A stretch of DNA of 64,000 nt, taken from assembly GCA_003020945.1 (NCBI GenBank), contig PXRU01000003.1:72947-136946 (forward strand), given 5' to 3'. Position numbers and translations under genes: made by a program. Positions 2,700 to 53,790 of the stretch are shown here, in pieces. Within the stretch, counting starts at the first letter, position 1; the number at the start of each line of letters is the position of its first letter. The notes under the pieces are model-generated. The model was not told the DNA's origin and searched no databases. It saw nothing but the letters and a program-made list of their open reading frames with translations. The DNA is from Halobacteriales archaeon QS_6_71_20. Lineage in GTDB: Archaea; Halobacteriota; Halobacteria; Halobacteriales; Haloferacaceae.

Positions 2700-3011
2700 T
2701 TACGCCAGGTTGGCCGACAGGATGACGCCGTAGGAGATGAACCACAGCGTGAACGTCATGAACGCCACGTAGAGGTTGTCCTTGATGCCGAACTCCTCGA
2801 TATCGACGCCGAGGAGCTTCAGCAGCGGTATCTGCGCGAAGACGAAGCCCGCGACCACCAGCAGGGTGAGCCGACCCGTCGCCGCGTCGGCGGAGACCCC
2901 GAAGACAATCGCGGAAACGAGCGCCGCGGCGATCCCCGACAGACACGAGACGGTTGTGACCGTCACCCCGCGGAGGTGGTCGGAGAGCCCCGAAGCTGCT
3001 TCCGTGGCCAT
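2700..3011 (-). CDS. Small conserved membrane protein (EMC6-like), co-oriented upstream of rli
   Basis: 3 hydrophobic helices, GIKDNLYVAFMTF; 1-nt gap to rli. Confidence 0.7.
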   Translation of the reverse strand: MATEAASGLSDHLRGVTVTTVSCLSGIAAALVSAIVFGVSADAATGRLTLLVVAGFVFAQIPLLKLLGVDIEEFGIKDNLYVAFMTFTLWFISYGVILSANLA

Positions 3012-3123
3012 ACGCGACAGTCGACCAGCCGACGACAAAAGGGGTTCGCTTGCCGGAGGACGGCGACACCCCGAATAATGTTCCGTGAATCTTTAAGCGA
3101 GTGGCTTGTTTCGAATCGTAACG

Positions 3124-3462
3124 ATGGCCGCAACCGACGAGGAATCCCTCGACGACCTGCCCCCGAGCGCCAAACTCGTGTTCAAGGTTCTGGAGTACGA
3201 CGGGCCGCTGACGCAGAAGGGGATCGTCGAGGAATCGATGCTCTCCGCGCGGACGGTACGGTACGCGCTCGAACGACTCGAAAACATCGGCGTCGTCGAC
3301 GAGGACGTCTACTTCGCCGACGCGCGGCAGAACCTCTACCAGCTCACCGCCCCACAGACGGCGGAGGCCGACGGCGGGCAGAAGCCGGCGAACGCGGAGT
3401 CACGTACACAGAATGACTCGGACCGGGCTGAAGACGGGCGAGAAGCCTGCTGCGCGGAGTAA
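3124..3462 (+). CDS. Winged-helix (MarR/TrmB-like) DNA-binding protein
   Basis: LPPSAKLVFKVLEYDGPLTQKGIVEESMLSARTVRYALERL; TTTAAG box at ~3092. Confidence 0.85.
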   Translation: MAATDEESLDDLPPSAKLVFKVLEYDGPLTQKGIVEESMLSARTVRYALERLENIGVVDEDVYFADARQNLYQLTAPQTAEADGGQKPANAESRTQNDSDRAEDGREACCAE

Positions 3463-3597
3463 GCGCCACTGCGGTACCCGTCGTCCCACGACTGTCGTCG
3501 TCTGCCGGCTGAGCGCTCGACGAACACCGTTTTACTGTTCACACGGCGCCGTCGAAGAAACCGGACCGTCGCAACGGAAGATCGCGATCGGCACCGC

Positions 3598-4452
3598 TCA
3601 GCCCCGTCGATGGCTCGCGTACGTCCGGAGACGATATCCCACGTGACCCGCCGCGAACGCCGCCGCGGCACACGCCCAGAACACGAGGACGAACGGAAGG
3701 AGGAAGACGCCGAACAGCCACACCCCCAGCGCGAGGGCGAACGTGCCGGCAGTAACTGCGAGCAGCACCGCACCGACCCCCCAGCCGACCAGCAGGGAGC
3801 CGAGGGGTGAACTCGCGGCGACCGGGTCGGCGACGATGGCGTCGACGGCACGCCCGGCAGCGACCCGAAGCGACACGCCGTCGGCCTGCAGCGCGAACGG
3901 GACGGTCGTCCCGCCGACTCCGGCGACCGCCGCGGCACCGACGACGGTGACCACGACCGCGCCACCGAGCGCCGGCGAAAACACCAGTTGAACCAGCCCG
4001 TACGGCGAGAAGATCAGCGCGGTCGGCAGGAGGGGAACCGCGAGCGCAGGGACCGCCACGGCGACCCACCCGAGCGTTCCGGTCACGTTCGTCTCGGGGG
4101 CGTCGACGAGTGCGCGGACGACCAGCAGGTCCAGTCCGACGACGCTCGCCGCGAACGCGAGCGGGAACGTGGACAGTACGAGGAGGGACAGAACCGAGCC
4201 GACTCGACTGTCGAACGCCGACACCCCGAGGACCGCGGCGATCGCCGCGACCCCGCCCGCGAGCGAGAACGGAGCGAACACGGCGGCGATCGCGCTGCCG
4301 GCGACGACGAGAGCGTACGCGGTTCCGACGAGAAACACCAGCGCGAGGTTGTCTCGGATACCCCCGCGTTCAGCCGGCCCCGTCGACCCGAGACCGGACT
4401 CGCCGTGCGTTCCGCAGCGTCGCCGCTCCGGTGCGCCGTCACCGCGGTTCAT
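3598..4452 (-). CDS. Hypothetical multi-pass membrane protein
   Basis: 284-aa hydrophobic ORF; TTTTATA box on the minus strand at ~4474-4480. Confidence 0.65.
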   Translation of the reverse strand: MNRGDGAPERRRCGTHGESGLGSTGPAERGGIRDNLALVFLVGTAYALVVAGSAIAAVFAPFSLAGGVAAIAAVLGVSAFDSRVGSVLSLLVLSTFPLAFAASVVGLDLLVVRALVDAPETNVTGTLGWVAVAVPALAVPLLPTALIFSPYGLVQLVFSPALGGAVVVTVVGAAAVAGVGGTTVPFALQADGVSLRVAAGRAVDAIVADPVAASSPLGSLLVGWGVGAVLLAVTAGTFALALGVWLFGVFLLPFVLVFWACAAAAFAAGHVGYRLRTYASHRRG

Positions 4453-48761: not shown

Positions 48762-49391
48762 ATGTCTACGTCACAATGACATGTTATGGAGCATCACAGT
48801 ACGTGCGGAATACGCAACCCATTCAAGAGGTCCGAACGGGTTCGCCCGTCCCGAACGACGTGGCGCCTCAGCCCGACGCACGGAGCGCGGCCGGTCGCTC
48901 ACCCGCCACGACCGTGCCGCTCGACAGGTCGAGCGCCCGCAGCAGTCGCTCGACGCCGTCCGCCCCCGTCTCGGCAGTCGGACGCGGGACGCCCCGGCCG
49001 TTCGCCAGCTTCGCGGTGATGGCCGGGACGCTCGCCCGCGCGGGCGTGACTCGAAACCCTCCGGTCGACGAGTCGGCGTCGCACCGCCGGTCGTCCGGAA
49101 CCTGCTGAACCGAACCGACGACACCCACCGCTGGCTCGCGTTCGGCCCGCCGCCGGTCGGCACAGCCGAGGGCTTCGGAAGCTACGCCTTGCCGGAAAGG
49201 AGGGATAGCTGCCGGCCGATCGCGGCGGGTTCCGAGCCTGATACCGCAGCGGGGGCATCACACGATTTCTTAACGCCGTCGCCACTGGCAAGTACTGGAC
49301 CGCGACGTGCCTGTTCGTGTACACGTCGAGGCGGGCGGCGAGACTGGCGATAGCTATATCCGGCCGTCACGACCAACTTAGGACCGAACTT

Positions 49392-51897
49392 ATGGACTCC
49401 ACCGAGAGCCTCCCGTCGCGGGCGGACACGGTCATCGTCGGCGCGGGGATCGTCGGCTGTAACGTCGCGTATCAACTGACGAAGCTCGGACGTGAGAACG
49501 TGGTCGTCGTCGACCAGGGTCCGATGCCCACGACCGGCGGCTCCTCGACGCACGCGCCGGGTATCATGTTTCAGACGGCGGAACCGAAGACGCTCAGCCA
49601 GTTCGCGAACTACAGCCGGAAGCTCTACACCGACCTCGAAGGCGCGGACGGCCGACAGGCGTACAACGAGACGGGCGGCATCGAGGTGGCCCGCAGCGAG
49701 GAGCGGATGGCGTTCCTCCAGCGCCGGGTCGAACACGCGAAGGCGTGGGGGATCGAGGACCCGCAGCTGCTCTCGCCCGAGGAGGTCACCGACCACCTCC
49801 CGCTCGTCGACGAGAGCCGGATACTGGGCGGCTACTACTCGCCGACGGACGGGCAGGTGTCCGGCGTCGTGGCGTGTGACGCGCTGGCCCGCGAGGCCAT
49901 CGACCGTGGCGCGACGTTCGTGCCACACACCCGCACCGAGGACGTTCGAACCGAGGGCGGGTCGGTGGAGGGCGTCGTCACCGAGAACGGCACCATCGAG
50001 TGCGACGAGGTGGTCGTGGCGACGAACATCTGGGCGCGTCAACTCGGCGAGAAGCTCGGCGTCCACCTGCCGGTGACGCCGGTCGAACACCAGTACACGA
50101 TGACCGAATCGCTGGATGAACTCGCCGACGGCGCGGTCGACGTGACCGACCACCCGCTGTTCGAGAACTACGAGAACGTCTCCGGCGAGAAGGCGAAACG
50201 GCTGTTGGTCGGGCCCGACCGGCCCATCCTGCGCGACCAGGACAACGCGATGTACTTCCGAACCCACGGCGACTCCTACGGCATCGGCTCGTACAACCAC
50301 GAGCCGGTCGTGCCGGACCCGCAGGAGCTGGGCGGCAACACGGCGGACGGACAGGGGTCGGTCCACGAGTTCACCGAGCAGCACATGAACTCGGCGACCC
50401 ACCCCGACCGCCCGCACAAGCCACCCCGGCAGGCCAGCGACGAACTGCTGCCGGCGACCGCGGGCAAGGAGTTGGAGTTCAGCTACAACGGGATGTTCGC
50501 GGAGTCGCCCAACGGCCTGCCCGTGATGGGCCCGGTGCAGGAGTACGACGGCCTCTGGACGGCCGCGGCCATCTGGGTCACGCACGCCGGCGGCGCGGCG
50601 AAGGCGCTCGCGGAGTGGATGGAGACGGGCGTGCCGAGGCTCGACGACGGGCCGATCGACCTCGCGCACTGTGACGTGAACCGGTTCGACGACCACGAGG
50701 GGAGCTGGGACTTCGCCCGCGACATCGGCGGGGAGGAGTACCGCATCGTCTACAACGTCATGCACCCGAAGTGGGTGTGGACCGAGCAACAGCGGGACAT
50801 CCGGCGCACGCCGATGTATCACACCCACGAGGAGATGGGCGCGGAGCTGTGGGCCGAGGCCGGCTGGGAGGAGCCGCAGTGGTTCGAGTCGAACGCCGAC
50901 CTCGTCGACCGCTACGCCGACCGGATACCCGACCGCGACGGCTGGGAGGGGCAGTACTGGTCGCCGATCGAGGGCGCGGAGGCGCTCCACGTCCGCAACG
51001 CCGTCGGTCTCCACGACATGACCTCGTTCAACAAGATGGAGGTGGTCGGCTCCGAGGCGGGCGCGTTCGTCCAACGACTGTGTACGAACGACATGGACCT
51101 CGACGTCGGCGAGGTGAAGTACACCCTGATGTGCAACGAGGGCGGCGGTGTCCGCGCGGACATCACCGTCACGCGCACCGACGAGAACCGGTACCTCCTC
51201 CTGACGACCGGCCGCGAGGTCGGGAACAACCACGTCGCGTGGGTGCGCGAGCAGTCGCCCGAGGGCGTCGTCGTCACCGACGCGACCTCCAGTCTGGCCG
51301 CGATGGTGTGTACCGGCCCCGACGCGCGGAAGGTGCTCTCGGAGGTGACCGACGTCGATCTCTCCGACGAGGCGTTCCCGTTCTTCACCAGCCAGCAGTT
51401 CTTCGTGAAGAACGTGCCCGTCACGGCGTTGCGGGTCTCGTACGCCGGCGAACTCGGCTGGGAGCTGTACACGCCCTCCGAGTACGGCGAACGGCTCTGG
51501 GAGCACGTCCTCGAAGCCGGCGCGGAGTACGACATCCGGCCGTACGGCAACGGCGCGCTCGACTCGCTGCGCATCGAGAAGGGGTTCCGGCTGTGGGGGA
51601 AAGACCTCCACACGGAACACACGCCCGCCGAGGCCGGTCTCGGCTGGGCCGTCGACATGGACACCGACTTCATCGGCAAGGACGCGCTAGACGGTGCTCG
51701 ACAACCGGCCCGTGTTTACACCCGAGGGTGACGAGTCGCTCGGCTACGTCCACAGCGCGGAGTACGGCTACACGGCGGGTGCCTGCGTCGCCTACACCTA
51801 CCTCCCGCCGGAGTACGCGGAACCAGGCACCGACCTGGAGATCCTCTTCGAGGGCGACCGCTACGCGGCGACGGTGCGCGAGGAGCCGCTCGTGTAA
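49392..51897 (+). pseudogene. DMG/sarcosine dehydrogenase-like FAD/THF protein (paralog 1), frameshifted by an apparent ~60-nt deletion near 51690
   Basis: GAGIVG FAD motif, GGSSTHAPG, GcvT domain; main frame stops at 51731 while the C-terminal domain continues in another frame (51694-51897, ...EEPLV*). Confidence 0.8.
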
Positions 51898-52291
51898 ACT
51901 ACCCCGTCCTACTCGCTCCCTCCCGCCTTGCGGCGGTCGGTCACTCCTTGAGGACGGGGCTTTACCGAAGCGACATTTGCCCCGCGACCTCATGCGGTTC
52001 GAGAGAGCTTCGCTCTCTCGTCGTCACGAAAGGCGCGAAGCGCCTTTCGAACGGCATGGACGCGGCCCGGCTTCCTCCTGCCGTTCCACGGTGGAGGCGG
52101 CGGGTCGGAGCAGTGCTGCGACCCACGCTTCCCGGACCTGTGCCGTGGACTGTCCCGCCGGTTTGATTCCCGGTGTTCTCGCGCTCCATCCCCAAGCGGG
52201 GAACGGGAGTCCACCCCGTTCGCGGTCGTCGTTCCCGAGTATAGGGTGCGACGGCGTTGCCGTCGCACCGCGGGTGCCAGTTTACTCGTGG
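51894..52291 (-). ncRNA. Putative OMEGA (omega/reRNA-like) scaffold; strand inferred
   Basis: Run of perfect hairpins (52000-52020, 52027-52049, 52201-52221, 52245-52269) ending in the RE hairpin with a GCAA loop on minus. Confidence 0.5.
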
Positions 52292-53442
52292 AGAGCGTGT
52301 CATAGAATAGTTCTCGCACCCTTCGAGTGACGATCCGATGAGCGGTAAATACAGGAGGTGTACGTAACAGGCCTGGTCACTCCGTTGACTTAGAAGGTTG
52401 TCTTTGAATGTCGATTGTCACTGGCCGAGCGTCTCGTCTCATGTGTCTGTATCCGAGCGCGATTAGTATTCCAGAGACCGCAGCAACCGGGACAAATGAC
52501 GGGACTGCGGACGGATCGAAGGGCACCACCGTGGCGTTGCCGAACCCGTGAACGAAGCCGGCGTACCACACGTTCTGCGTCAGATAGTAGATGACACCGT
52601 AGGTGATCCCCGGAATTAGGTTCCCCAGGATGATCAACGGGATCGCGGTTGGGGGTACGCCTTCCAGCAATAGCCCGATGGGAATATGCGCGACGCCGAA
52701 CAAGACCGCTCCACCGAGAATCCCGACTGTGGCGGACAGTCCATGCGAGCGAGAACTCACAAGCGCGGTACATTTGTTCTGCACGTATCCCCGGAAGACG
52801 AACTCCTCAGTGAGCCCGTTCGAGACGGTGAGTGTGAGTAGAAACCAGATCGGAACCCAGTACCACGGCATATCGAAGGCAAAGCCGAGTTGTGCGGTCG
52901 CTCCCGTGACGACGAGATATCCCACGCCGACGATGCTAACCCATCCCCAGAGGACTCCGAACGCGACGACCGCGGGCAGGAACGTCGATCTACTGAGGCC
53001 GACAGCGGACGCTGAAACGCCCTCATACCGAAGCACGCCCCAAGTACCAAGAATGAGAATCAGCATGAACGGAAAGCTTAGGATGGCCGACAGATGTTTC
53101 GGATATTCCGACGACTCAGGGCCCAAAACCGCCGTGTGAGCGGTCACCGAGGCAGCCGCGACAATACTCACGAATGAAACGAGCGCAACGAGAGGGACCA
53201 AACTGGGAATGAAACGGAGGTGACGTGGTGATGTGCTCATGCGTCTGTGGTCTCGACAGTAGAGTAATAAAATATTTCGAGGATAGATGAGGAAGCTGTT
53301 AACTTCTGTAATCATCAGCGAGGACCTGCTGGTCACCTCGGAACCCACTACTGGCTTGGTAAGTTCACAATCCCGCGTAACGGTTGATATACTCTGTCTC
53401 GTGTGAAAGGAACTGCTGTGTGAACCCTTCTATGACACGCTC
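52292..53442. mobile_element. TIR-bounded non-autonomous mini-transposon carrying a passenger gene
   Basis: 26-bp TIRs (22/26 match, outer 15 bp perfect: GAGCGTGTCATAGAA) at 52293-52318 and 53417-53442; direct repeat CGTGG at 52287-52291 and 53443-53447. Confidence 0.85.
52377..53240 (-). CDS. CPBP/CAAX-family intramembrane glutamic metalloprotease
   Basis: EEFVFRGY, FGVAH, HGFGN motifs; multi-TM; visibly AT-richer than the flanks. Confidence 0.9.
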   Translation of the reverse strand: MSTSPRHLRFIPSLVPLVALVSFVSIVAAASVTAHTAVLGPESSEYPKHLSAILSFPFMLILILGTWGVLRYEGVSASAVGLSRSTFLPAVVAFGVLWGWVSIVGVGYLVVTGATAQLGFAFDMPWYWVPIWFLLTLTVSNGLTEEFVFRGYVQNKCTALVSSRSHGLSATVGILGGAVLFGVAHIPIGLLLEGVPPTAIPLIILGNLIPGITYGVIYYLTQNVWYAGFVHGFGNATVVPFDPSAVPSFVPVAAVSGILIALGYRHMRRDARPVTIDIQRQPSKSTE

Positions 53443-53790
53443 CGTGGCACCTACTATCCCGAACTTACACCGGGGTAGTAGTGTTCAGAAAATAGCCGGA
53501 AGAAAGCTAATTCTTTCGATACCGACGGTTGCCCGGATGATGACGGCGATCCCTCTCCTCCCTACTCGCGCCTTCGGCGCTCGTTGAGGAAGGAGGCTCC
53601 TCGCGTATGAACGCTGAGTCGTATCGCCCGCCTGTCAGGCTGTGGGCGTGGGCGGGCGGTCGCGGGCGTGACACCGCGACGGATGGCTTTCGGACGAAAC
53701 GCCACGTAGAACAGTTCTCGACGCAGTTTTCGGTGATTCGACACCCGCTTTACCGGTGTATTTATCCCCGCGACAACCGCGGAACGTGCC

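What the first reader, a model, noticed from the sequence alone, without database searches (positions are those of the whole stretch)
51894..53606. Nested, transposase-free element: an orphan OMEGA-type IS605 derivative carrying a protease-loaded mini-transposon
Seen: two related imperfect hairpins in the same orientation, at 51902-51959 and 53555-53595. The minus strand ends GGGGTAGTTTAC, and TTTAC pairs with GTAAA just 5' of the hairpin. The other end abuts TTCAT (ATGAA on plus). There is no TnpA, TnpB or IscB ORF. Removing the inner TIR element leaves ~560 nt of near-continuous hairpins. Established: IS200/IS605 ends are co-oriented hairpins with a 4-5 nt target motif and no TSD, and TnpB/IscB guide RNAs derive from the element end plus flank. 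Inference: this is a stand-alone omega-RNA locus usable in trans by a TnpA/TnpB encoded elsewhere, now carrying a passenger gene where tnpB would be.
Basis: partly seen in the sequence, partly recalled or inferred. Interest (0 to 1): 0.85.

Follow-up and report, generated by a model that had tools for sequence, protein, structure and literature searches.

The report
Nested transposase-free mobile elements in Halobaculum
This stretch is a pile-up of three transposase-free mobile elements: a small IS200/IS605-type "PATE" sitting exactly on a host gene's stop codon, later hit by a 58-nt mini-repeat and by a cassette carrying a membrane protease gene; this kind of nesting is already known in salt-loving archaea, but this PATE family has an unusually large, conserved folded core.

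Summary
The outer element runs 51894-53613, not to 53606. It reads left end to right end on the minus strand, next to a CTCAG target, not TTCAT.

It belongs to a ~465-500-nt non-coding IS200/IS605 derivative (PATE) family. I found intact copies in over 25 haloarchaeal genomes. Its ends and first three core hairpins match a tnpB-only IS family, of which this genome holds one copy on contig C4.

Two later insertions are proven by copies that lack them:
- a 58-nt double-hairpin mini-repeat (51996-52053);
- a 1151-bp cassette (52292-53442) with IS5-like inverted repeats and a 5-bp CGTGG duplication, carrying a CPBP/Rce1-like protease gene.

PATEs, their possible guide RNAs used in trans, and PATEs hit by small repeats and MITEs are all published, so the kind is known.

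Two points seem unreported. The family carries an extra ~175-200-nt covarying module that the tnpB relatives lack. The family's ends also mimic stop codons: 17 of 46 IS copies and 9 of 48 PATE copies replace a convergent gene's TGA with TAA, as happens here.

RNA expression and TnpB use could not be tested. This copy is split by the cassette and is probably inactive.

The parts
51894..53613 (-). Outer non-autonomous IS200/IS605-type element (PATE). The left end is at 53613 and the right end at 51894. It is about 504 nt once the two inserts, the cassette's target duplication and the GC repeat are removed.
   Evidence: Seventeen aligned full-length copies share these boundaries. Copies without either insert exist in G001 and G004. 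More copies were found.
53614..53618 (-). Target motif (TAM) CTCAG just 5' of the left end. The family consensus is TTCAG. On the plus strand it reads C-TGA-G, the host gene's original stop codon.
   Evidence: The motif is NTCAG in all 17 copies, TTCA in 15 of 20 PATE copies and TTCAG in 20 of 26 IS copies. The empty site was reconstructed.
53555..53595 (-). Subterminal hairpin of the left end.
   Evidence: It folds and shows covariation in helices 2-4. The same hairpin type lies 60-250 nt upstream of tnpB in 5 of 9 loci. nhmmer matches the left end upstream of tnpB in the related IS family.
53448..53485 (-). Core hairpin 1, cut off from hairpins 2-3 by the cassette.
   Evidence: Partial R1 model hit at 53431-53485. 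Helix 5 has 5 pairs with compensatory changes.
52292..53442 (.). Inner 1151-bp cassette with terminal inverted repeats GAGCGTGTCATAGAA.., a MITE or mobile-insertion-cassette type.
   Evidence: Inverted repeat pair I1. The cassette is absent from the G001 and G004 PATE copies. The same repeats bound a 1067-bp IS that encodes a DDE_Tnp_1 transposase, 147-bp MITEs and a different cargo in G027.
52287..52291 (.). Left copy of the 5-bp target duplication CGTGG. The right copy is at 53443-53447.
   Evidence: Uninterrupted PATE copies read GGTGG once at this position.
52377..53240 (-). Cargo gene: CPBP/Rce1-like intramembrane protease, 287 aa from the ATG at 53240.
   Evidence: Pfam PF02517, E = 4e-16. 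Homologues at 64-86% identity are ordinary chromosomal genes without the inverted repeats.
52242..52291 (-). Core hairpins 2 and 3.
   Evidence: Partial R1 hit at 52242-52314. Helices 6-8 show compensatory changes.
51996..52053 (.). 58-nt double-hairpin small mobile repeat with GGTTCGA..TCGAACG ends, flanked by GC on both sides.
   Evidence: Absent from other PATE copies. Many copies occur in other haloarchaea. Fold z = -5.4. Other copies sit inside IS605-type ends.
51960..52241 (-). Extra conserved structured module of the PATE core (interrupted by the 58-nt insert). It has no counterpart in the related tnpB elements.
   Evidence: Alignment and covariation. The tnpB elements have only ~33 nt between the R1 region and the right-end hairpin. 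It has no Rfam family.
51902..51959 (-). Subterminal hairpin of the right end.
   Evidence: Fold; helices 19-21. nhmmer matches it 21-83 nt after the tnpB stop in the related IS family. A sub-threshold Rfam DUF3800-X hit lies here.
51894..51899 (-). Right-end terminus GTTTAC. On the plus strand it reads G-TAA-AC and supplies the host gene's present stop codon (TAA, 51895-51897).
   Evidence: The family-wide pattern is shown.

Best explanation
The locus is a pile-up of three non-autonomous mobile elements.

1. Shown: a ~500-nt PATE, a transposase-free IS200/IS605 derivative, inserted 3' of a CTCAG target on the minus strand. That target is the C-TGA-G stop codon of a convergent DMGDH-like gene. 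The element's GTTTAC terminus reads G-TAA-AC on the gene strand, so the protein still ends ...EEPLV.

2. Shown: a 58-nt double-hairpin small mobile repeat and a 1151-bp IS5-like inverted-repeat cassette with a 5-bp duplication later inserted into the PATE. The cassette carries a captured CPBP protease gene.

3. Shown by homology: the PATE consists of the left end, the omega-RNA-bearing 3' portion and the right end of a tnpB-only IS family. One intact copy of that family lies in this genome (C4, 435-aa TnpB). The PATE also has an extra ~175-200-nt covarying module.

4. Inferred: intact family members are moved by a Y1 TnpA supplied in trans.

5. Inferred: they are transcribed from the left-end promoter into an omega-like RNA. 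A cognate TnpB could load this RNA and cut the empty TTCAG-plus-flank site.

6. Inferred: this copy is probably a dead remnant. The cassette splits the core, and the assembly holds no TnpA and no matching IS5-like transposase.
For: Architecture:
- Copies lacking both inserts exist in G001 and G004.
- Seventeen full-length copies from other genomes share the boundaries.
- A core-motif scan found 39 more loci, with up to 10 or more copies per genome.
- Four orthologous loci lack the element and end EEPLV*/EEPLL*.

Family link:
- The left-end hairpin type lies upstream of tnpB in 5 of 9 loci.
- The PATE HMM matches the left end 80-160 nt before tnpB and the right end 21-83 nt after it.
- Model R1 (core hairpins 1-3) hits the tnpB 3' end in 79 of 80 loci and in the own-genome copy L033 (29.6 bits, E = 5.6e-6).
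- A tnpA+tnpB element has related ends.

Folded core:
- 25 of 94 predicted pairs carry compensatory changes, against 10.4 +/- 2.1 in shuffles and 3-8 in slid controls. The G.U pairs fit only the minus strand.

Cassette:
- Its inverted repeats are those of a 1067-bp DDE_Tnp_1 IS.
- CPBP homologues elsewhere lack the repeats.

Stop-codon pattern.

Literature: PMC3119063 and PMC10055086.
Against:
- Rfam's omega RNA (sotRNA) and HEARO models do not match.
- None of the tnpB elements I sampled carries the extra module, so the core is not simply a known omega RNA.
- No Y1 TnpA gene and no IS5-like transposase were found in the 94%-complete assembly.
- The left-end region of this copy is diverged.
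- The 79 R1 hits are homologous loci, so they are not independent tests.
Confidence: 0.8

Rival explanations
1. The conserved core encodes a structured RNA whose role has nothing to do with TnpB guidance. It could be a regulatory or element-maintenance RNA that merely rides on IS605-type ends.
For: - The extra ~175-200-nt module has no counterpart in the sampled tnpB elements.
- It has its own covariation.
- It also occurs with a different type of end hairpin in L054, L056 and L197.
- No omega RNA family in Rfam matches it.
Against: - Core hairpins 1-3 and the terminal hairpin are homologous to the tnpB 3' region where omega RNAs lie.
- At least 10 of 18 genomes carrying the PATE motif also appear in the truncated list of genomes with the cognate TnpB clade.
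Confidence: 0.25
2. The conserved interior folds as single-stranded DNA and serves transposition (TnpA recognition or stability of the excised circle). No functional RNA is involved.
For: - IS200/IS605 elements move as single-stranded DNA of the top strand, and G.T wobble pairs also form in DNA.
- The structure is strand-specific for that strand.
Against: - From established knowledge of IS608 and ISDra2, TnpA needs only the subterminal hairpins and cleavage sites.
- Terminal-only PATEs of 52 bp appear to be mobile (PMC3119063).
- A ~350-nt conserved multi-helix interior is not needed for that.
Confidence: 0.08
3. The hairpins are chance features of a GC-rich intergenic spacer, or a terminator, and there is no outer mobile element.
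For: Energy z-scores for the hairpins alone are modest, and the whole-element fold has z = -0.86.
Against: More than 50 homologous copies sit in unrelated flanks with identical boundaries, and orthologues show the empty site.
Confidence: 0.01

Closest known systems
PATEs (palindrome-associated transposable elements) of Haloquadratum walsbyi and Natronomonas (Dyall-Smith et al. 2011, PMC3119063)
   Same: - Transposase-free, with no inverted terminal repeats and no target duplication.
- Near-terminal palindromes related to IS605-type (IS1341/tnpB) transposons, and a 4-5-nt targeting sequence.
- Frequently hit by small mobile repeats (SMR-A) and MITEs, forming element pile-ups.
   Different: - This family is ~465-500 nt long and conserved at 72-89% identity across several haloarchaeal families.
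- It has a large covarying core, including a ~175-200-nt module not found in the related tnpB elements.
- I did not compare its sequence with the named HqIRS families, because their sequences were not at hand.
PATE-like elements with omega RNAs in Geobacillus stearothermophilus (Meers et al. 2023, PMC10055086)
   Same: A minimal IS605-type element without genes. It is proposed to be moved by TnpA in trans, and its omega RNA to be used by a TnpB encoded elsewhere.
   Different: - This one is archaeal and has different ends.
- Whether it makes an omega RNA is only inferred here.
- The core is about 155 nt longer than the omega-RNA region of the cognate tnpB element (~345 nt against ~190 nt, measured from hairpin 1 to the right end).
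sotRNAs (omega RNAs) of IS1341-type tnpB genes in Halobacterium salinarum (Gomes-Filho et al. 2015, PMC4615843; Rfam RF02656 and RF02657)
   Same: A sense RNA element at the 3' end of haloarchaeal tnpB elements, abutting the right end. The PATE's core hairpins 1-3 map to that region of a TnpB clade.
   Different: Neither the window nor intact PATE copies match the Rfam sot models. There is also no tnpB gene in the element.
Mobile insertion cassettes and cargo MITEs (for example the MIC231 elements of Bacillus cereus; recalled from my own knowledge, not checked here)
   Same: The inverted repeats of an IS flank a passenger gene instead of a transposase, with a target duplication, and the cassette is moved in trans.
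   Different: - Here the repeats are those of a haloarchaeal ~1067-bp DDE_Tnp_1 (IS5/IS4-like) IS.
- The cargo is a CPBP protease.
- A sister cassette in G027 carries an unrelated 202-aa ORF.
IStrons (IS605-type elements fused to group I introns; 10.1101/2023.11.20.567912)
   Same: An IS605-family element that makes its own insertion phenotypically silent for the host gene.
   Different: Silence here comes from ends that mimic stop codons (TGA replaced by TAA), not from RNA splicing. I found no intron features.

Membership tests
IS200/IS605 non-autonomous derivative (PATE) | Co-oriented subterminal hairpins at both ends; no terminal inverted repeats | tested here: met
   The termini are CGTTC.. 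and ..GTTTAC, with no inverted repeat.
IS200/IS605 non-autonomous derivative (PATE) | No target duplication; a conserved 4-5-nt target abutting the left end only | tested here: met
   NTCAG lies before the left end in all 17 copies, and the flanks are otherwise unrelated.
IS200/IS605 non-autonomous derivative (PATE) | Ends homologous to those of tnpB- or tnpA-bearing elements | tested here: met
   (L199 reads left end, tnpA, tnpB, right end).
IS200/IS605 non-autonomous derivative (PATE) | Too short to encode a transposase, with no transposase ORF | tested here: met
   None of the 39 loci has tnpB inside the element.
IS200/IS605 non-autonomous derivative (PATE) | Evidence of mobility: copies at unrelated sites and an empty site | tested here: met
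TnpB omega RNA (OMEGA guide RNA) | Scaffold at the 3' end abutting the right end, on the tnpB strand | tested here: met
   Met by homology only. R1 hits the tnpB 3' end in 79 of 80 loci and in L033, and the right-end hairpin is shared.
TnpB omega RNA (OMEGA guide RNA) | Match to curated omega RNA (sotRNA) models RF02656/RF02657 | tested here: not met
   No hit at E <= 1 in the window or in four intact copies.
TnpB omega RNA (OMEGA guide RNA) | Stable transcript whose 3' guide extends past the right end | not testable with these tools
TnpB omega RNA (OMEGA guide RNA) | Bound by TnpB and directs TAM-dependent DNA cleavage | not testable with these tools
   This needs an experiment.
IscB omega RNA / HEARO | Match to the Rfam HEARO model, or an adjacent iscB gene | tested here: not met
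   No Rfam hit and no IscB ORF.
Rfam DUF3800-X RNA (RF02984) | Score at or above the gathering threshold of 38.2 bits | tested here: not met
   Scores were 31.8 bits in the window and 25-30 bits in other copies, on the right-end hairpin only.
IS5/IS4-like (DDE_Tnp_1) MITE or mobile insertion cassette | Terminal inverted repeats identical in type to those of an autonomous IS | tested here: met
   The repeat AG(G/C)GTGTCATAGAA..GTTC bounds a 1067-bp IS with a 330-aa DDE_Tnp_1 transposase.
IS5/IS4-like (DDE_Tnp_1) MITE or mobile insertion cassette | Target-site duplication and a demonstrable empty site | tested here: met
   CGTGG is duplicated, and uninterrupted PATE copies read GGTGG once. The G027 cassette shows 8 bp, so the duplication length is not constant.
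Small mobile repeats (SMR-A-like) of haloarchaea | Very short, with terminal inverted repeats, no clear duplication, and a preference for PATE or IS605-type ends | tested here: inconclusive
   It is 58 nt with GGTTCGA/TCGAACG ends and a 2-nt GC repeat. Copies sit inside IS605-type right ends and inside another PATE copy. I made no sequence comparison with HqIRS42, 43 or 55.

The most novel reading that the evidence does not exclude
This PATE family may be a self-standing mobile RNA gene. It would be an enlarged omega-like RNA with an added ~175-200-nt covarying module, expressed from the left-end promoter without any tnpB. The module would give it a function beyond ordinary TnpB guidance, or adapt it to compete for a TnpB supplied in trans. 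The family and its parent IS may also have evolved ends that mimic stop codons (TTCAG reads C-TGA-A; GTTTAC reads G-TAA-AC), so that landing on a convergent gene's stop codon is silent.
Probability: 0.3. Interest if true: 0.6.

Novelty: new member of a known kind. Interest (0 to 1): 0.4.

Why it matters
On its own, this locus is an ordinary example of mobile-element nesting in a haloarchaeon and is probably inactive. Three things give it some wider value.

1. It defines a widespread, well-bounded PATE family with a cognate TnpB clade and a candidate TnpA. That makes a convenient archaeal system for testing whether gene-less elements supply guide RNAs in trans.

2. It exposes a conserved, covarying RNA-like module that is absent from Rfam.

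3. It shows that a fifth to a third of surviving copies of this IS family replace a host stop codon in frame. This is a simple way for single-strand transposons to insert without harm, and it can mislead gene annotation at 3' ends.

Tried and rejected
- **Second copies in the same genome.** BLAST of every segment found none. The hairpin motif regex found only the two ends. That regex missed the L033 element, whose hairpin reads TTGAGGC.
- **TnpB remnants inside the PATE.** tblastn and tblastx of nine TnpB proteins gave nothing significant.
- **tRNA-like origin of the GGGTTCGACTCCC motif.** ARAGORN found no tRNA or tmRNA.
- **Rfam identity.** Only a sub-threshold DUF3800-X hit on the right-end hairpin. 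The DUF3800 paper offers no function (PMC5737381).
- **Energy z-score of the whole element.** Not significant (z = -0.86), so I relied on covariation instead.
- **A tnpB element carrying the extra module.** None in 80 loci of the cognate clade, 39 core-motif loci or a sample of 400 genomes.
- **Whether the CPBP cassette travels as a unit.** Homologues at 64-86% identity lack the inverted repeats.
Rejected by the family alignments.


Full report
**Setting**

The window is contig C3:72947-136946 of a 2.65-Mb, 32-contig, 94%-complete haloarchaeal assembly. The genus is Halobaculum: relative G004's contig C11 has the same length (269,439 bases) as a Halobaculum gomorrense record, NZ_FQWV01000004.1, that carries the same element.

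The finding lies between two tandem paralogous genes for DMGDH-like enzymes (DAO + GCV_T domains). A low-GC stretch (47-58%, against 66-70% in the flanks) spans about 52300-53500.

**Checking the observation**

The two hairpins exist at the stated places and share the motif CC..CTACTCGC...TTGAGGA..GG. That motif occurs nowhere else in the assembly.

Both hairpins fold better on the minus strand.

No TnpA, TnpB or IscB ORF lies inside. The only Pfam hit is a CPBP/Rce1-like protease at 52377-53240, minus strand.

**The nesting is proven by comparison**

A search of 40 relatives matched the region in separate pieces. In G001 (two copies) and G004, window pieces 51893-51995, 52054-52291 and 53546-53604 lie next to each other as one ~455-nt element. 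This shows three things:
- There is an outer element.
- The 58 nt at 51996-52053 are an insertion. It is a double hairpin with GGTTCGA/TCGAACG ends and GC on both sides.
- The stretch 52292-53442 is an insertion with a 15-bp perfect inverted repeat (26 bp at 85%) and a 5-bp CGTGG duplication. Uninterrupted copies read GGTGG once at that point.

**Boundaries and family**

A search of 400 genomes of the order found full-length copies (72-89% identity, 460-500 nt), 1-2 per genome, in several families and always in different flanks.

Seventeen aligned copies start (N)TCAG|C and end GGGGTAGTTTAC.

A scan for a 30-nt core motif found 39 more loci. There are at least 10 in Saliphagus infecundisoli and at least 5 in Haloarchaeobius amylolyticus. 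None has a tnpB gene inside the element.

**Relation to IS200/IS605**

- The right-hand hairpin type lies 60-250 nt upstream of tnpB genes (OrfB_IS605 plus the Cas12f1-like TNB domain) in 5 of 9 loci, with tnpB running away from it. It is therefore a left end in the minus orientation.
- This genome holds four tnpB genes and no Y1 tnpA gene.
- One of them (L033, contig C4, 435 aa, NCBIfam guided_TnpB) has a left end starting TTCAG|CAG, the same hairpin type, and a right end finishing GGGTGGGGTAGTTTAC.
- Its clade is widespread at 75-90% amino-acid identity.
- A PATE profile matches the left end 80-160 nt before tnpB and the right end 21-83 nt after it in these loci.
- A covariance model of PATE core hairpins 1-3 (R1) hits L033 36-108 nt before the tnpB stop (29.6 bits, E = 5.6e-6). 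It hits 79 of 80 clade loci at the same place and on the same strand. These loci are homologous to each other, so they are not independent tests.
- A tnpA+tnpB element with related ends exists in Halegenticoccus tardaugens (L199).
- At least 10 of 18 genomes with the PATE motif also appear in the truncated top-80 list for the TnpB clade.

**A folded core**

RNAalifold predicts 94 pairs, and 25 of them carry compensatory changes. Shuffles give 10.4 +/- 2.1 (0 of 500 reach 25), and slid controls give 3-8. Overall, 96% of cells are paired. Many G.U pairs are valid only on the strand that reads left end to right end.

In the tnpB elements, only ~33 nt separate the R1 region from the terminal hairpin. 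In the PATE the gap is ~208 nt. So the PATE has an extra conserved module of ~175-200 nt, including the near-invariant GAGAACACCGGGAATTAAATCGGCGGGACAATCC and a variable closing hairpin.

This module has no Rfam family. It is not a tRNA. It also occurs with a different type of end hairpin in L054, L056 and L197.

A TTTAA/CTTAA box about 30 nt upstream of hairpin 1 could be an archaeal promoter. This is inference only.

**The insertion site**

Orthologues in four relatives lack the element and end ...EEPLV* or ...EEPLL*. Removing 51894-53613 restores ...CTC GTC TGA. The occupied allele reads CTC GTG TAA, with the TAA supplied by the right end.

This is a family-wide property. TTCAG reads C-TGA-A on the other strand, and GTTTAC reads G-TAA-AC in the same frame. 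I tested for an open frame of at least 100 codons with GC3 of at least 0.8, on the opposite strand, ending exactly at the TAA supplied by the element.

| Set | In-frame with the supplied TAA | Control frame 1 | Control frame 2 |
|---|---|---|---|
| PATE copies (n = 48) | 9 | 0 | 1 |
| tnpB IS copies (n = 46) | 17 | 0 | 0 |

The window copy is one of the 48 but misses the cutoff, because the gene's frameshift cuts its frame at 68 codons (GC3 0.91).

As a baseline, 11.9% of the 4047 TTCAG/CTCAG sites in this genome are such stop codons, and 30.9% lie in the other two frames of opposite-strand genes. The surviving copies therefore fit purifying selection plus a silent landing on stop codons. I found no published mention of this.

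**The cassette**

Its inverted repeats, AG(G/C)GTGTCATAGAA..GTTC, occur in about half of 400 haloarchaeal genomes. They bound three kinds of element:
- a 1067-bp IS encoding a 330-aa DDE_Tnp_1 transposase;
- 147-bp MITEs;
- in G027, a cassette with an unrelated 202-aa ORF.

No such transposase was found in this assembly. CPBP homologues at 64-86% identity are ordinary chromosomal genes without the repeats, and the similarity stops at the ORF. So the protease gene was captured.

The gene lies on the same strand as the PATE, between core hairpins 1 and 2. The insertion also splits the core.

**The 58-nt repeat**

It has many copies in other haloarchaea. Some lie inside IS605-type right ends, and a longer ~125-nt variant lies inside another PATE copy. 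This matches the SMR-A behaviour described for Haloquadratum.

**Comparison with what is known**

Dyall-Smith et al. 2011 (PMC3119063) defined PATEs and showed their ends resemble those of IS605-type transposons. They also showed that small mobile repeats and MITEs preferentially insert into them. Meers et al. 2023 (PMC10055086) state that PATEs often encode omega RNAs that would need a TnpB acting in trans.

**Verdict**

- The architecture is firmly established.
- The guide-RNA function is plausible for intact family members but untested.
- This copy is probably inert.

Noticed in passing
window 51894-51899 and 53614-53618; loci L072-L151 and L160-L198: The ends of this IS family mimic stop codons. 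The target TTCAG reads C-TGA-A and the right end GTTTAC reads G-TAA-AC on the other strand, in the same frame. 17 of 46 tnpB IS copies and 9 of 48 PATE copies end a long high-GC3 convergent frame exactly at the supplied TAA, against 0-1 in the control frames. The baseline is 11.9% of target sites.
   Followed up: yes
window ~51688-51694 (gene 49317-51897): The upstream DMGDH-like gene lacks 68-80 nt that are present in four orthologues. This shifts the frame just before the GCV_T_C domain, so the gene looks like a pseudogene, unless it is an assembly error.
   Followed up: partly
L152 (G027:C34) 3010-3837; L153; L154: The same inverted-repeat family occurs in three forms: a 1067-bp IS with a DDE_Tnp_1 transposase, 147-bp MITEs, and an 828-bp cassette carrying an unrelated 202-aa ORF with no Pfam match. 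The cassette has an apparent 8-bp duplication, GTAACGTT.
   Followed up: partly
L054, L056, L197: Here the PATE core, including the extra module but lacking hairpin 3, is combined with a different end hairpin type (CCCACGACT..AGTCGTGGG) and ends in ..GTAGCTTAC. This suggests the core is a module exchanged between elements with different ends.
   Followed up: partly
L192 3823-5367: In Saliphagus infecundisoli a PATE copy abuts a tnpB reading frame that is truncated at residue ~375 (43% identical to L033). This looks like a PATE inserted into another IS605-type element.
   Followed up: no
L017, L015, L047: The 58-nt double-hairpin repeat sits inside IS605-type right-end hairpins in other genomes. 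A ~125-nt four-hairpin variant replaces part of the PATE core in G137.
   Followed up: partly
L044 2539-2683 (minus strand): A sub-threshold Rfam sot0042 (omega RNA) hit (37.7 bits, gathering score 88) lies ~570 nt downstream of a PATE copy in G286. I did not examine it.
   Followed up: no
own genome, contigs C2, C4 and C10 (L032-L035): The genome has four apparently intact tnpB genes of at least two end types, but no Y1 tnpA was detected in the 94%-complete assembly.
   Followed up: partly
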